DNA of 32,000 bases, taken from positions 176,515 to 208,514 of the forward strand of contig JAKAFP010000007.1 in the NCBI GenBank assembly GCA_021825925.1. Reading direction: 5' to 3'. Under the pieces are notes generated by a model, which saw only the letters and a list, made by a program, of their open reading frames with translations, was not told the origin of the DNA and searched no databases. How positions within the stretch are numbered: position 1 is the first letter of the stretch; the number at the start of each line of letters is the position of its first letter. The position numbers and the translations under genes are program-made. Origin of the DNA: Chloroflexota bacterium. Lineage in GTDB: Bacteria; Chloroflexota; Anaerolineae; Anaerolineales; Anaerolineaceae. Below are positions 9,623 to 12,532 of the stretch, one piece after another.

Positions 9623-10678
9623 ATGACTAAGAAGTGGCTGCTCGCTTATCTGTTGATAGTTATCTTTTCCATCTGCTTTTTAAGTTCTTGTCAGACTCCC
9701 ACCACTGCCACACCCGTCGCTTCTAAAACAAAAATTGTCTTCATACCTAAATTAACAGGGGTAGGTTTCTTTGAGTCCGGCGGAAAAGGGGCTCTTGAAA
9801 TGGGGAAACAATTAGGCATAACCGTCACCTACGATGGCCCAAATGCACCCAGCGTAAATGGGCAGATTGAATACATTCAAAAATATATGGATGCAGGATA
9901 TGATGCCATCGCTATTTCTTCATTATCTCCAGACGGTTTGTGCGACATATTAAAGAAAGCCATGAATGATGGCATTGTGGTACTTACCTGGGATTCAGAT
10001 GTGAACCCTGACTGCCGTTCCTACTACATAAATCAGGGAACTCCCATCCAATTGGGAAGGCTGCTGGTCAGTATGGCAGCCAGCCAAATGAAGGATGTAA
10101 CTGCCCCCCAGGATGTAGCGTTCTTTTATTCAAGCCCGACCGTCACCGACCAGAACCAATGGGTAAGTGTCGCCAAAGCCATCATCGCCACCGAATATCC
10201 TTCATGGACCATCGTGACCACCCAGTATGGATATCAAAATGTAGAAAAATCCCTCGAAACAGCCACCAATATCTTTTCCGCTTACCCCGACCTGGATGCC
10301 ATCATTTGTCCGGATGCCAACGCCCTTCCTGCTGCCGCCCAGGCAGCTGAAGAACTTGGGATCGGCGGAAAAGTGATCATTACCGGTTTTTCCACCCCCA
10401 ACGTCATGCGCCCATTTGTCAAAAGTGGCACCGTCAATCGTTTTGGTCTTTGGGATGTGGTTGAACAAGGTCAACTTTCCATTTATATTGCCAATGAACT
10501 GGTTAATGGACGCAAGTTTTCCATCGGCGAAAAAATTGACGTGCCAGGGGTTGGCACGGTGGAAATTTCTTCGAATAAAGTACAGGGATATGAATATGAA
10601 AGTGTTGGGAACGGAATCATCCTGCTGCCCAATCGAGTGATATTTGACATCAATAATATTGATGATTTTGATTTTTAA
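9623..10678 (+). CDS. lsrB: LsrB-type periplasmic binding protein lipoprotein (Peripla_BP_4; predicted autoinducer-2 receptor)
   Basis: Lipobox FLSSCQ. Full-length colinear similarity to my recollection of enterobacterial LsrB: FIPKLxGVGFFxSGG, VTYDGPxxPSVxGQ, SPDGLC, [27 protein letters not shown], IVTTQxGY, [24 protein letters not shown], FGLWDVVxQG, GNGIxLLPxRVIF, DF C-terminus. ATG 9623 follows a GGAAGG RBS; the track start at 9614 is GTG. Confidence 0.88.
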
Positions 10679-10687
10679 AGAGTCATT

Positions 10688-12532
10688 ATGCTGAAAAGAC
10701 TTAAAGGACAGCATTACAGCCTTCCGATCATCATCGGCAATACGGTCATGTTGATATTATTGACCATCGTTGCCATTACCGGGGTATCCGGTGTAAAACA
10801 AAACGCAAAAAGCAATGCAATTGCCCTTGAACGCCGGCGTGAGATGGCCGATATTCGAACCCTGCAGCTTCTCATTAAGACCATGGACAACAGCCAGATC
10901 AACTATATATATAATGGTGATCCGGTTGATGCCCAGGCATTTAAAAATTCAATACCACCTTTGCTGGAATTTCGTACCCAGATTAGTAAATCACTCGAAA
11001 CTGAAGACGATCAGCTGAATTTCAATATCATCAATCGCCAGACAGACCAATATATCAGCTTGTTTTCTAAAGAAATAGTTCCAGCCCGTGAAAGTAATGA
11101 CCTCGATTCCTTAAGAACATTAAAAGACCAATCGGATGAATTGATCTCTCAGATTGACCCTTTCATCCAGAATATGATCGCAAATTATGAGGTCAAGGCT
11201 CAAAGTGCCTATCAAGCTGCACTGGCGGTTAAAGAAAAAACGATGTTCATCGTCATTTCTCTCTCAATAATTGTTGGGGTTATCGGATTATTTACTGGTT
11301 TTGGGATGGCCAGTACCATTGGAAAGAATACTCACCAATTAATGGTTGCCACGAATCAGCTTGAGAAATCTGAAGCGGCATTAAAAGAAAGCGAGCGATT
11401 CCTTAACAGCATTATTGAGAACATCCCCACCATGGTTTTTGTTAAAGAGGCTCCCGATTTACGCTACATTAGGTTCAATAGAACCGGAGAAGCAATTCTT
11501 GGTTTTGAACCTGGTTTCGTAAAAGGAAAAAGCGATTTCGATTTCTTCCCATCAGACCTGGCCTCGTTTTATCGAACCAAAGATCTTGAAGTCTTCGAAT
11601 CTAAGCATTTAGTGGATATTCCTGAAGAATTTGTTAATACCAAAAATAATGAAAAAAGAGTATTTCACACCAAGAAGATCCCAATTTTAGACGAGGATGG
11701 AAACCCAAAATACCTGCTGGGGATTTCGGAAGACATCACCGTACGCAAACAAGCCGAGGATAAGATCCGTCAGATGAACGCGGAACTTGAACTTCGGGTG
11801 GAACAGCGTACAGCGCAATTGGAATCCAGCAACAAGGAACTTGAAGCATTTTCTTATTCCATATCCCACGACCTGCGCGCACCCCTACGTGCGATTAATG
11901 GATATGCCCAGTTAATCAAAGAAGATCATGCTCAAGGACTTTCACCTGTTGCGATCAATTATTTTGATTTGATCCGCAAAAATGCCATCATCATGGGCCA
12001 ATTGGTTGATGATCTTCTCAATTTTTCAAGGTTGGGAAGAATGGGTCTCTCGAAAGCCAAGATTTATCCTGTGCCGATGATCCAAAGTATTATCGAGAGC
12101 ATGAAACCAGAGTTGGAAAACAGAAAAGTCAGTTTTTCGATCAAAGAACTGCCAGTCTGTGAAGCTGATGCTGCTCTTTTAAGACAGGTTTTTATCAATC
12201 TCATATCCAACGCGGTGAAGTTTTCCAAGGATAAAGAAGAATCCTTGATCGAGATAGGATATCAACATTCAACTGATATTGATTTAGCTGCCAACTCATC
12301 CGACAAAAAAGTGATCTACTATGTTCGAGATAATGGCATTGGTTTTGACATGAAATACTACGATAAACTTTTTGGAGTCTTCCAACGCTTGCACACCGCA
12401 GATTCTTATGAAGGCACCGGGGTCGGATTGGCCATCGTCTCTCGAATTGTCAATAAACATGGGGGAAGGATATGGGCAGAGGCGGTTTCAGGTCAAGGCG
12501 CTACTTTTTATTTTACGTTGGAACCTGATTAA
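10688..12532 (+). CDS. Orphan sensor histidine kinase: TM - ~150-aa helical periplasmic domain - TM - PAS - coiled coil - HisKA - HATPase_c (614 aa)
   Basis: TM1 ~aa 12-33 and TM2 MFIVISLSIIVGVIGLFTGFGMA. PAS (FLNSIIENIPTMVFVK...LLGISEDITVRK), H-box FSYSISHDLRAPLRAI, N-box LISNAVKFS, G-boxes RDNGIGFD and GTGVGLAIV. Starts 9 nt after the lsrB-like stop. No REC domain and no adjacent RR. Confidence 0.92.
   Translation: MLKRLKGQHYSLPIIIGNTVMLILLTIVAITGVSGVKQNAKSNAIALERRREMADIRTLQLLIKTMDNSQINYIYNGDPVDAQAFKNSIPPLLEFRTQISKSLETEDDQLNFNIINRQTDQYISLFSKEIVPARESNDLDSLRTLKDQSDELISQIDPFIQNMIANYEVKAQSAYQAALAVKEKTMFIVISLSIIVGVIGLFTGFGMASTIGKNTHQLMVATNQLEKSEAALKESERFLNSIIENIPTMVFVKEAPDLRYIRFNRTGEAILGFEPGFVKGKSDFDFFPSDLASFYRTKDLEVFESKHLVDIPEEFVNTKNNEKRVFHTKKIPILDEDGNPKYLLGISEDITVRKQAEDKIRQMNAELELRVEQRTAQLESSNKELEAFSYSISHDLRAPLRAINGYAQLIKEDHAQGLSPVAINYFDLIRKNAIIMGQLVDDLLNFSRLGRMGLSKAKIYPVPMIQSIIESMKPELENRKVSFSIKELPVCEADAALLRQVFINLISNAVKFSKDKEESLIEIGYQHSTDIDLAANSSDKKVIYYVRDNGIGFDMKYYDKLFGVFQRLHTADSYEGTGVGLAIVSRIVNKHGGRIWAEAVSGQGATFYFTLEPD

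What the first reader, a model, noticed from the sequence alone, without database searches (positions are those of the whole stretch)
9623..12532. LsrB-type AI-2 binding protein hard-wired to an orphan histidine kinase (LuxPQ-like logic on an LsrB scaffold)
Seen in sequence:
- The lipoprotein at 9623-10678 is colinear over its whole length with enterobacterial LsrB as I recall it.
- The six residues used in the literature to define functional AI-2-binding LsrB orthologues all appear present in the expected contexts. These are K35, D116, D166, Q167, P220 and A222 in S. Typhimurium numbering. The contexts here are FIPK, TWDSD, VTDQNQW and CPDANALP.
- None of the canonical lsr partners is in the window: no transporter lsrACD, kinase lsrK, repressor lsrR, or lsrFG.
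- Instead, 9 nt downstream and with no terminator between, lies a membrane HK. Its ~150-aa helical periplasmic domain (nt ~10787-11243) is flanked by two TMs and followed by PAS-HisKA-HATPase.

Established knowledge: periplasmic binding proteins can act as co-sensors docking on HK periplasmic domains (LuxP-LuxQ for AI-2, TorT-TorS, ChvE-VirA). LsrB is also known to signal to the Tsr chemoreceptor.

Inference: this pair could be an AI-2 or related furanosyl/pentose-derivative sensing phosphorelay in which LsrB serves signalling rather than import. I am not aware that such a pair has been described.

The HK has no adjacent response regulator, so the output is unknown. The strong resemblance to enterobacterial LsrB in this genomic background also hints at horizontal acquisition.
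Basis: partly seen in the sequence, partly recalled or inferred. Interest (0 to 1): 0.85.

Follow-up and report, generated by a model that had tools for sequence, protein, structure and literature searches.

The report
LsrB autoinducer-2 binder paired with kinase
An uncultured Anaerolineae bacterium carries a clear orthologue of LsrB, the protein that binds the inter-species signal AI-2, but its gene is always fused into a two-gene unit with a membrane histidine kinase instead of an importer, which suggests AI-2 is sensed here as a signal rather than taken up.

Summary
Window 9623-10678 encodes a lipoprotein that passes NCBI's LsrB equivalog model (538 bits, cut-off 384). It is about 63% identical to the crystallised Salmonella and Sinorhizobium LsrBs and keeps all six AI-2 contact residues. 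Nine nucleotides downstream, in the same frame and with no predicted terminator between, starts a 614-aa histidine kinase (HK): TM, ~150-aa helical outside domain, TM, PAS, HisKA, HATPase. The window holds no lsrACD/K/R/F/G and no response regulator (RR) next to the pair.

- **Adjacency is not chance.** Every retrieved relative of the kinase's sensor domain has lsrB directly upstream, in five unrelated flanking contexts, all from Anaerolineae/Chloroflexota metagenome genomes.
- **The sensor domain travels with LsrB.** In the most distant pair LsrB is 78% identical and the outside domain 52%, but PAS, DHp and catalytic domains only 25-36%.
- **Structural analogue.** The modelled sensor is a four-helix bundle. 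Its best solved match is LytS-N, the domain that docks the binding protein XylFII.
- **Contrast.** The nearest other LsrBs checked (66% identity, Chloroflexota) sit in complete lsr import operons.

Best reading: an LsrB-dependent AI-2-sensing kinase, mechanistically closer to XylFII-LytS and LsrB-Tsr than to LuxPQ. It is untested. A 2021 review credits a 2019 study with noting lsrB next to kinase/regulator genes in Treponema. I rate it a new variant of a known kind.

The parts
9517..9525 (+). Putative extended -10 promoter element TGCTATACT, about 97 nt upstream of the lsrB start codon
   Evidence: Read directly from the sequence. The same TGCTATACT occurs upstream of lsrB in L002 and L003, with TGCTATATT in L018. 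It is a consensus-level inference only, and the scan did not list it.
9609..9616 (+). Shine-Dalgarno-like GGAAGGTG, 6 nt before the ATG at 9623
   Evidence: Sequence. It supports ATG 9623 over GTG 9614 as the start. The database protein P0121 (351 aa, 100% identical) uses the same start.
9623..10678 (+). lsrB orthologue: lipoprotein solute-binding protein, 351 aa (signal peptide and lipobox LSSC, Cys23 at 9689-9691; Thr/Pro-rich tether; Peripla_BP_4 core residues 38-298)
   Evidence: NCBIfam LsrB equivalog 537.9 bits against cut-off 384. Peripla_BP_4 E 3e-58. 62.5-62.9% identical to crystallised LsrBs. All six AI-2 contact residues plus F41 and W170 are kept.
10679..10687 (+). 9-nt spacer (agagtcatt) between the lsrB stop codon and the kinase start codon
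   Evidence: The spacer is 9 nt in L001, L002 and L004, 9 nt to an in-frame ATG in L003, 11 nt in L006 and 12 nt in L016. No terminator is predicted on the + strand.
10688..12532 (+). Sensor histidine kinase, 614 aa, with no adjacent response regulator
   Evidence: Pfam PAS_4, HisKA and HATPase_c. Full-length orthologues of 48-89% identity occur only in Anaerolineae/Chloroflexota metagenome genomes.
10721..10789 (+). Transmembrane helix 1 (residues ~12-34)
   Evidence: Hydropathy scan. AF2 model shows a continuous helix over residues 12-76.
10790..11242 (+). Extracytoplasmic four-helix-bundle sensor domain (residues ~35-185), the proposed LsrB docking module
   Evidence: AF2 mean pLDDT 88.8 with four helices. 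Best PDB match is 5xsj_L, LytS-N of the XylFII-LytS complex: TM-score 0.88 on the target, rmsd 1.6 A, E 0.012. Weak HBM and 4HB_MCP_1 hits. The domain stays 52-72% identical wherever LsrB is adjacent, even where PAS falls to 25%. 46 invariant positions across 17 orthologues.
11243..11311 (+). Transmembrane helix 2 (residues ~186-208), continuing into a helical linker
   Evidence: Hydropathy scan. AF2 helix over residues 139-234.
11399..11749 (+). Cytoplasmic PAS domain (residues 238-354)
   Evidence: Pfam PAS_4 E 3e-15.
11843..12037 (+). HisKA dimerisation/phospho-acceptor domain (residues 386-450), H-box SHDLRAPL with His394 at 11867-11869
   Evidence: Pfam HisKA E 7.9e-12. The H-box is conserved in all orthologues. 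His394 was counted from the alignment.
12167..12523 (+). HATPase_c catalytic domain (residues 494-612)
   Evidence: Pfam HATPase_c E 5.4e-23. Motifs NLISNAVKF, DNGIGF and GTGVGLA are visible in the alignment.

Best explanation
The two genes form one operon that encodes a two-part extracytoplasmic sensor. The lipid-anchored LsrB orthologue binds the non-borated AI-2 form (R-THMF), made by neighbouring bacteria. The liganded protein docks sideways on the four-helix-bundle sensor domain of the adjacent kinase. This changes the packing or position of the two transmembrane helices and so shifts the kinase/phosphatase balance of the PAS-HisKA-HATPase transmitter. The phosphoryl group goes to a response regulator encoded elsewhere; in a sister lineage that regulator is a single-domain receiver encoded immediately downstream.

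Shown here: LsrB orthology and an intact binding site, operon-like spacing, strict conservation of the pair, and the four-helix-bundle fold of the sensor. Inferred: AI-2 as the ligand, physical docking, the direction of the effect on kinase activity, and the output.
For: 1. **LsrB identity.** The SBP passes the LsrB equivalog model and keeps all six contact residues plus F41 and W170.
2. **Conserved pairing.** Every locus retrieved with this sensor domain has lsrB directly upstream with a 9-12 nt spacer. These are L001-L011, L016-L019 and L021-L022, in five unrelated flanking contexts. None has an ABC permease or ATPase beside it.
3. **Co-conservation.** Between the window and L016, LsrB is 78% identical and the outside domain 52%, but PAS is 25%, DHp 36% and the catalytic domain 34%.
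4. **A dedicated sensor domain.** An exhaustive phmmer search of 1.84 billion representatives finds only three clusters at E<1e-30, all kinases of this kind (P0010, P0020 and L016-like P0251). The next relatives (22-30% identity) that were scanned are mostly four-helix-bundle chemoreceptors.
5. **Fold.** The AF2 model (pLDDT 88.8) is a four-helix bundle between two TM helices. The top solved match is LytS-N from the XylFII-LytS complex, followed by another HK sensor domain, Tar and NarQ. XylFII itself is a Peripla_BP_4 relative of this SBP (5xsj_X).
6. **Distinct clade.** The 27 closest LsrB clusters form one clade in a neighbour-joining tree. Thirteen of them were tied to an HK gene, by retrieved loci or by matching contig lengths. 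Two LsrBs checked outside the clade (P0148, P0165; 66% identity, Chloroflexota) lie in full lsrF-A-C-D-B-K...R operons.
7. **Precedent.** Reviews describe SBP-stimulated kinases (LuxP-LuxQ, XylFII-LytS, TorT-TorS) and LsrB signalling through the four-helix-bundle chemoreceptor Tsr (PMC8050422; PMC12503165).
Against: - There is no biochemical evidence for AI-2 binding, for complex formation, or for any effect on kinase activity.
- Whole genomes could not be searched, so an lsrACD transporter elsewhere is not excluded.
- The SBP is almost unchanged relative to transporter-linked LsrBs. Only three clade-specific substitutions were found: E67A, N79K and G206N in Salmonella numbering. No obvious new interface is therefore visible.
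- The Foldseek E-value for LytS-N is weak (0.012), and four-helix bundles are a common fold.
- The response regulator and regulon are unknown for the window's lineage.
- All sequences come from metagenome assemblies.
Confidence: 0.55

Rival explanations
1. Dual-use or transport-first LsrB. The protein still delivers AI-2 to an ABC importer encoded elsewhere in the genome. The kinase either only regulates that importer or merely shares a promoter. ChvE and E. coli LsrB, for example, serve both a transporter and a signalling receptor.
For: The SBP surface is nearly identical to transporter-linked LsrBs, with only 3 clade-specific substitutions. Canonical lsr operons exist in Chloroflexota. The review PMC8050422 lists several SBPs that serve both a transporter and a receptor.
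Against: No CUT2 permease or ATPase lies within 8-10 kb of the pair in any of the five contexts. The canonical operons found carry their own, distinct lsrB at 66% identity. This rival would still involve SBP-to-kinase signalling in its first form, so it overlaps the main explanation.
Confidence: 0.2
2. The architecture is the same but the ligand is different. The SBP binds another furanosyl or pentose-derived compound rather than AI-2, and the pair is a nutrient sensor like XylFII-LytS.
For: The nearest non-LsrB relatives are rhamnose binders (RhaS 233 bits; 4kvf, 5bq3). The title of Torcato et al. 2019, listed in the review's references, says the LsrB binding site shows plasticity. Two of the loci have glycoside hydrolases nearby: GH3 in L003 and GH31 in L006.
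Against: All six AI-2 contacts plus F41 and W170 are kept in all 27 clade members, with A222 replaced by S in at most 2 of the 122 sequences aligned. The protein passes the LsrB equivalog cut-off and fails the RhaS one. The neighbouring hydrolases are not conserved between contexts.
Confidence: 0.15
3. The genes are co-transcribed but the proteins do not touch. The kinase senses something else through its four-helix bundle or its cytoplasmic PAS domain, and LsrB is simply co-expressed.
For: Four-helix-bundle domains such as Tar and NarX/NarQ bind small ligands directly, and both appear among the fold matches. The PAS domain is an independent potential sensor.
Against: Strict adjacency persists across five contexts while the flanks change completely. 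The outside domain is conserved selectively together with LsrB while PAS diverges to 25%. The sensor domain was never found without lsrB in any locus retrieved.
Confidence: 0.1

Closest known systems
XylFII-LytS(-YesN) D-xylose three-component sensor of Clostridium beijerinckii (PDB 5XSJ)
   Same: A transporter-less Peripla_BP_4 binding protein is encoded next to a membrane kinase. The kinase sensor is a four-helix bundle between two TM helices. LytS-N is the best solved structural match to this sensor model, and XylFII is a detectable sequence relative of this SBP. The review describes the SBP binding sideways on the bundle (PMC8050422).
   Different: The ligand site here is LsrB-type, not xylose-type. 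From my own knowledge, LytS carries a PF06580-type (His_kinase) transmitter; the transmitter here is PAS + HisKA. No response regulator is adjacent, and no regulated transporter is known.
LsrB-Tsr chemotaxis to AI-2 in E. coli
   Same: The same binding-protein family is involved (about 63% identity to enterobacterial LsrB). The partner again has a four-helix-bundle outside domain. Most of the nearest non-orthologous relatives of this sensor domain that were scanned are 4HB_MCP_1 chemoreceptors.
   Different: The output is a histidine kinase, not a chemoreceptor signalling domain. The genes are adjacent here, whereas the E. coli lsrB gene sits with the AI-2 transporter genes and its LsrB also feeds the importer (PMC8050422).
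LuxP-LuxQ AI-2 sensor of Vibrio
   Same: The logic is the same: a binding protein for AI-2 controls a membrane kinase, and the genes are adjacent.
   Different: LuxP is a different Peripla_BP_4 lineage that binds borated S-THMF (PMC12503165). The LuxQ sensor is a dCache-like 'LuxQ-periplasm' domain (PMC8050422). From my own knowledge, LuxQ is a hybrid kinase with a receiver domain. None of these features is present here.
Canonical lsr operon (lsrACDBFG / lsrRK), including versions in Chloroflexota
   Same: The SBP is an orthologue that passes the equivalog model and has an identical ligand-contact set.
   Different: No lsrA, C, D, K, R, F or G lies in the window or beside any clade member. The Chloroflexota lsr operons found (L012-L015) carry a different lsrB at 66% identity.
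lsrB next to sensor kinase/response regulator genes in Treponema primitia and T. azotonutricium (Torcato et al. 2019, as cited in PMC8050422)
   Same: This is the same idea: an lsrB gene next to two-component genes, suggesting signalling rather than transport.
   Different: The phylum differs. I could not read the primary paper or retrieve the Treponema loci, so whether the kinases are related is unknown. The window's pair has no adjacent regulator, although its sister lineage L016 does.
TorT-TorS
   Same: A binding protein is encoded with a kinase that has an all-helical sensor domain. Weak profile hits exist to TorT (22 bits) and to HBM (19 bits).
   Different: Both hits are far below their cut-offs. 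The sensor here is a single ~150-aa bundle rather than an HBM-like double bundle. From my own knowledge, TorS is a hybrid kinase.

Membership tests
LsrB family of AI-2 binding proteins | Sequence orthology to characterised LsrB | tested here: met
   NCBIfam NF011937 equivalog 537.9 bits against cut-off 384, while RhaS fails its cut-off. 62.5-62.9% identical to 5gta and 3ejw over the whole mature protein.
LsrB family of AI-2 binding proteins | Six ligand-contact residues K35, D116, D166, Q167, P220, A222 (Salmonella numbering) | tested here: met
   Counted on the 5gta alignment. Conserved in all 27 clade members and nearly all of the 122 sequences aligned.
LsrB family of AI-2 binding proteins | Gene sits in an lsr operon with the lsrACD importer and lsrK/lsrR | tested here: not met
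   None of these genes is in the 32-kb window or beside any clade member. The rest of the genome could not be tested.
LsrB family of AI-2 binding proteins | Binds R-THMF (AI-2) | not testable with these tools
   Needs the purified protein and an AI-2 binding assay.
LuxP-LuxQ | LuxP-type binding protein | tested here: not met
   The best NCBIfam family is LsrB and no LuxP model is among the hits.
LuxP-LuxQ | LuxQ periplasmic tandem-PAS (dCache-like) sensor domain, and a hybrid kinase with a receiver domain | tested here: not met
   No LuxQ-periplasm or Response_reg domain was found. The LuxQ model matches only the catalytic core, 91 bits against cut-off 1200. The AF2 model is a four-helix bundle.
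XylFII-LytS-type SBP-dependent kinase | Transporter-less Peripla_BP_4 gene adjacent to a kinase gene | tested here: met
XylFII-LytS-type SBP-dependent kinase | Four-helix-bundle sensor domain between two TM helices | tested here: met
   AF2 pLDDT 88.8. 5xsj_L is the top match with TM-score 0.88 on the target and rmsd 1.6 A, though the E-value is only 0.012.
XylFII-LytS-type SBP-dependent kinase | LytS-type transmitter (the PF06580 assignment is from my own knowledge) and an adjacent response regulator | tested here: not met
   The transmitter is PAS + HisKA + HATPase_c. No regulator is adjacent in the window. The sister lineage has a single-domain receiver.
XylFII-LytS-type SBP-dependent kinase | Physical SBP-sensor domain complex modulated by the ligand | not testable with these tools
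TorT-TorS | TorT-type SBP and a TorS (HBM-like, double-bundle) sensor | tested here: not met
   TorT scores 22.4 bits against cut-off 200. HBM scores 19.3 bits against 29.8 and covers only half the profile. The model has a single bundle.
4HB_MCP_1 / TarH four-helix-bundle ligand-binding domains | Profile match and fold | tested here: inconclusive
   PF12729 is hit only weakly in orthologues, for example P0010 at 24.9 bits against cut-off 27. The fold and the nearest distant relatives (chemoreceptors at 22-30% identity) agree with this family.

The most novel reading that the evidence does not exclude
This would be a second, independently evolved route from AI-2 to two-component signalling. In a small clade of uncultured Anaerolineae, an LsrB that has left the Lsr importer is the obligate co-receptor of a kinase. 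The kinase's four-helix-bundle domain exists only as an LsrB docking module. These bacteria would then listen to AI-2 made by other community members without importing it. The same sensor module is joined to different transmitters: the window type, a PocR-containing variant, and an L016 type with its own receiver protein.
Probability: 0.45. Interest if true: 0.7.

Novelty: new variant of a known kind. Interest (0 to 1): 0.6.

Why it matters
Outside Vibrio, LsrB is described as the binding protein of an AI-2 importer, plus a chemotaxis input through Tsr (PMC12503165). From my own knowledge, this has fed a long debate on whether AI-2 is a true signal or mainly a metabolite for most bacteria.

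A conserved lsrB-kinase cassette with no importer beside it would be a clean, testable case of LsrB-type AI-2 signalling through phosphorylation. It occurs in a phylum (Chloroflexota) that the AI-2 literature I searched barely mentions. Anaerolineae are, from my own knowledge, abundant in anaerobic digesters and subsurface communities.

The cassette also supplies a compact pair for biochemistry or biosensor design: a ~330-aa SBP and a ~150-aa sensor domain. It would also help in working out how LsrB contacts four-helix-bundle receptors such as Tsr.

Tried and rejected
- **Source contig.** An exact look-up of the window's own kinase and of the identical P0001 found nothing on record, so the source contig and organism name were not retrieved.
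- **Primary paper.** Torcato et al. 2019 could not be read by PMC id or DOI. Its content is known only through the review.
- **Wider scans.** Scans of GTDB genomes and JGI metagenomes with the sensor-domain alignment returned only 2 loci each, all of the same kind. The family is rare and the statistics stay small.
- **Upstream operator.** A search for an operator travelling with the cassette found no 9-mer shared by three or more contexts. Only extended -10-like elements were seen.
- **Cognate regulator.** The L016 receiver protein matches the window's stand-alone receiver at 22677-23078 at only 31% identity (E 5e-12). That is ordinary receiver-domain similarity, so no partner was assigned.
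- **SBP interface.** A search for clade-specific SBP substitutions found only three positions, too few to define a patch.
- **RNA elements.** Rfam found no RNA family in the window.
- **Distant sensor relative.** The only distant sensor-domain relative whose locus was retrieved (P0252) is a chemoreceptor next to cheW on a 3.6-kb contig, with no SBP visible. This says nothing either way.
- **Fused-chain model.** I considered and dropped an AF2 model of a fused SBP-kinase chain. Such a sequence is not admissible and its membrane topology would be wrong.
- **Horizontal transfer.** HGT from Enterobacteria was considered. GC content is unremarkable, and the midpoint-rooted NJ tree cannot decide the direction or timing.

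
Full report
**What is in the window**

The ORF at 9623-10678 (+) encodes a 351-aa protein. The ATG at 9623 lies 6 nt after an SD-like GGAAGGTG, and the database copy P0121 uses the same start. The N-terminus ([23 protein letters not shown]) is a lipoprotein signal with Cys23, followed by a Thr/Pro-rich tether.

The protein is a Peripla_BP_4 member (E 3e-58). It scores 537.9 bits on NCBI's LsrB equivalog model (cut-off 384) and fails the rhamnose-binder model (233 against 342). 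Against solved structures it matches Sinorhizobium LsrB 3ejw (9e-136), Salmonella LsrB 1tjy/5gta (about 1e-133), Yersinia 3t95 and Bacillus 4pz0. The alignment is colinear to the C-terminus, at 62.5-62.9% identity.

F41 and W170 are also kept.

The kinase gene starts 9 nt after the stop codon, in the same frame. No terminator-like site lies on the + strand between 9200 and 13000. The 614-aa product has only two hydrophobic segments, ~12-34 and ~185-208. It then has PAS (238-354), HisKA (386-450, H-box SHDLRAPL, His394) and HATPase_c (494-612).

Pfam scans of all other sizeable ORFs of the window were run. They found:
- an OmpR-type RR/HK pair, HtrA and an FTR1 permease;
- an S8 peptidase, a CdhD-like protein with a ferredoxin, pirin and two MFS transporters;
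- an SBP_bac_3-PAS-HK followed by REC and REC-GAF-HD genes;
- kdpB-C-D-E;
- a PadR-DUF1048-ABC-2 exporter cluster and a MerR regulator.

There are no lsrA/C/D/K/R/F/G genes and no response regulator beside the pair.

**Is the adjacency meaningful?**

A search with the kinase found full-length orthologues of 48-89% identity. All come from metagenome assemblies, and the named ones are Anaerolinea sp. or Anaerolineaceae. I retrieved their contigs and added loci from GTDB genomes and JGI metagenomes found with a sensor-domain alignment.

A tblastn pass over all held loci shows that every locus with the sensor domain has lsrB directly upstream on the same strand. The flanks fall into five unrelated contexts:
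1. The window's own synteny (L001, L002, L010, L011, L018, L019).
2. L003.
3. L004/L005/L021.
4. L006-L009/L022.
5. L016/L017.

The spacer is 9 nt in four contexts (in L003 counted to an in-frame ATG upstream of the called start), 11 nt in L006 and 12 nt in L016. No ABC permease or ATPase is near the pair in any context. The pair thus moves as a two-gene cassette.

**Which part of the kinase goes with LsrB?**

Region-by-region identities to the window's kinase show the SBP is the most conserved component, at 78-91%. In the most distant pair (L016) the extracytoplasmic domain keeps 52% identity, while PAS drops to 25%, DHp to 36% and the catalytic domain to 34%. A further variant (P0010, 822 aa) has a PocR domain inserted between PAS and HisKA behind the same sensor domain. 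So the LsrB-plus-sensor-domain module is constant and the transmitter varies.

An alignment of 17 orthologues shows 46 invariant positions in the first 235 residues, many of them polar.

An exhaustive phmmer search of 1.84 billion representative proteins with residues 1-215 found only three clusters at E<1e-30: P0010, P0020 and P0251, which has the L016-type domain layout. The next hits (22-30% identity) that I scanned are mostly 4HB_MCP_1-type chemoreceptors. GTDB holds the domain in only two species representatives: an uncultured Anaerolinea sp. and Chloroflexi bacterium HGW-Chloroflexi-4.

**Fold of the sensor domain**

AlphaFold2 on residues 1-235 with the orthologue alignment gave mean pLDDT 88.8. 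The model runs TM1 into helix 1 (12-76), then helix 2 (79-102, kinked), helix 3 (106-135), and helix 4 running into TM2 and the linker (139-234).

Foldseek against the PDB ranks first the LytS N-terminal sensor domain from the XylFII-LytS complex (5xsj_L). TM-score is 0.88 normalised on the target, rmsd 1.6 A over 120 columns, and E is 0.012. Next come a sensor domain of another kinase (4k0d), Tar, NarQ and HK9. The E-value is weak, as expected for helical bundles, so I treat this as fold-level resemblance only.

It is nevertheless notable that the best match is a domain known to dock a Peripla_BP_4 protein, and that XylFII (5xsj_X) is itself a detectable relative of this SBP. The sensor is a single four-helix bundle. 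It is not the dCache-like domain of LuxQ and not the HBM-like sensor of TorS (domain types from PMC8050422). The HBM hit here is 19 bits against a cut-off of 29.8.

**Position within the LsrB family**

A search with the SBP returned 27 clusters of 70-100% identity, followed by many LsrBs of 62-71% identity from Rhodobacterales and other bacteria. In a neighbour-joining tree the 27 form one clade.

Thirteen of the 27 could be tied to an HK gene:
- P0121, P0123, P0128, P0131, P0136, P0140 and P0142 through retrieved loci;
- six more by matching contig lengths.

The contexts of the other 14 are unknown.

Two clusters just outside the clade (P0148 and P0165, 66% identity) lie in full lsr operons: DeoC/LsrF, a double ABC ATPase, two BPD_transp_2 permeases, LsrB, an FGGY kinase, a cupin and a SorC-type regulator. 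One member of the P0148 cluster is named Chloroflexota. So Chloroflexota have both the canonical importer-linked LsrB and this kinase-linked clade.

All 122 aligned sequences keep the contact residues, with A222 replaced by S in two. Only three positions distinguish the kinase-linked clade from all other aligned LsrBs: E67A, N79K and G206N. Whether the clade arose by duplication inside the phylum or by transfer cannot be decided from the midpoint-rooted tree. GC content of the pair is unremarkable.

**Output**

The window's lineage and three other contexts have no adjacent regulator. In L016/L017 the kinase gene overlaps by 4 nt a complete 157-aa single-domain receiver gene. This suggests an ancestral lsrB-HK-RR operon, or at least a receiver-only partner. 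Its best match in the window is the stand-alone receiver at 22677-23078, at only 31% identity, which is not evidence of orthology. The output is therefore unknown.

**Literature**

The review by Matilla, Ortega and Krell (PMC8050422) lists the known SBP-stimulated kinases and their sensor-domain types:
- LuxP-LuxQ: dCache-like;
- XylFII-LytS: four-helix bundle, with the SBP binding sideways;
- TorT-TorS: HBM-like;
- HptA-HptS, ChvE-VirA and AioX-AioS.

For LsrB it lists only Tsr as a signalling partner. [quoted passage not shown] 2019.

I could not read that paper. No held paper combines LsrB with Anaerolineae, and only two mention LsrB with Chloroflexi, neither describing this pair. Recent work still describes LsrB as an importer component plus a Tsr partner. 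So the idea has been noted bioinformatically in another phylum, but I found no characterised LsrB-kinase system and no description of this clade.

**Verdict**

The finding is real and its core interpretation is the best-supported one. The pair most likely works like XylFII-LytS, or like LsrB-Tsr with a kinase output: AI-2-loaded LsrB docks on a dedicated four-helix-bundle domain and modulates the kinase.

- Shown: orthology, the intact binding site, operon-like spacing, strict and selective co-conservation, and the fold.
- Inferred: the ligand, the docking, the direction of regulation and the output.
- Main unresolved rival: the SBP also serves a transporter elsewhere in the genome, which could not be tested here.

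I rate it a new variant of a known kind, with interest 0.6. It is still substantial because it offers a compact, testable case of LsrB-type AI-2 signalling in a phylum little covered in AI-2 work.

Noticed in passing
window 20595-25407 (- strand): This is a second SBP-based sensor of a different design: a kinase with SBP_bac_3 domains fused in front of PAS-HisKA-HATPase (23032-25407). It is followed by a stand-alone receiver (22677-23078) and a REC-GAF-GAF-HD (HD_5) protein (20595-22655). One window thus holds both a fused and a split binding-protein sensor.
   Followed up: partly
L016 8001-11401 and L017: A sister lineage carries lsrB (76-78% identical), a 620-aa kinase with the same sensor domain but a strongly diverged PAS/DHp/CA, and a complete 157-aa single-domain receiver overlapping the kinase stop by 4 nt. 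This may be the ancestral three-gene form.
   Followed up: partly
P0010 (822 aa, on a 144-kb contig; not in the window): This orthologue has the same sensor domain (69% identity) but a PocR sensory domain inserted between PAS and HisKA.
   Followed up: partly
L011 4186-6013: In one metagenome contig the kinase is split into 143-aa and 473-aa ORFs. The identical lsrB in L010 is followed by an intact 615-aa kinase. This is either a frameshift pseudogene or an assembly error.
   Followed up: no
L012-L015: Complete lsr operons occur in Chloroflexota metagenome genomes. In L012 and L014 the gene called for the ATPase also carries a Sugar-bind (SorC-like) domain at its N-terminus (827-828 aa), whereas in L013 the ATPase is 525 aa. 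A cupin gene follows the kinase gene lsrK.
   Followed up: no
window 14151-15464 (+): A membrane protein with a CdhD-like domain (343 aa) is followed by a small 2x[4Fe-4S] ferredoxin. The same pair lies right after the kinase in L001. In the window an S8 peptidase gene sits between the kinase and this pair.
   Followed up: no
window 825-3572 (- strand) and 269-643 (-): This cluster comprises PadR, two DUF1048 genes, an ABC ATPase and an ABC-2 permease, with a MerR regulator gene next to it. It is an exporter-type ABC system unrelated to Lsr.
   Followed up: no
window 19342-20496 (+): A 384-aa ORF has no Pfam match. A 383-aa gene, also without a match, lies at the same place in L010.
   Followed up: no
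window 25518-31724 (- strand): kdpE, kdpD, kdpC and kdpB lie in a row. kdpA would lie beyond the window end.
   Followed up: no
window 9353-9622: The 270-nt AT-rich region between the divergent FTR1 gene and lsrB (the 9001-10000 bin has GC 0.40) holds an extended -10-like TGCTATACT at 9517-9525. This implies a ~95-nt leader. No Rfam family matches it.
   Followed up: partly
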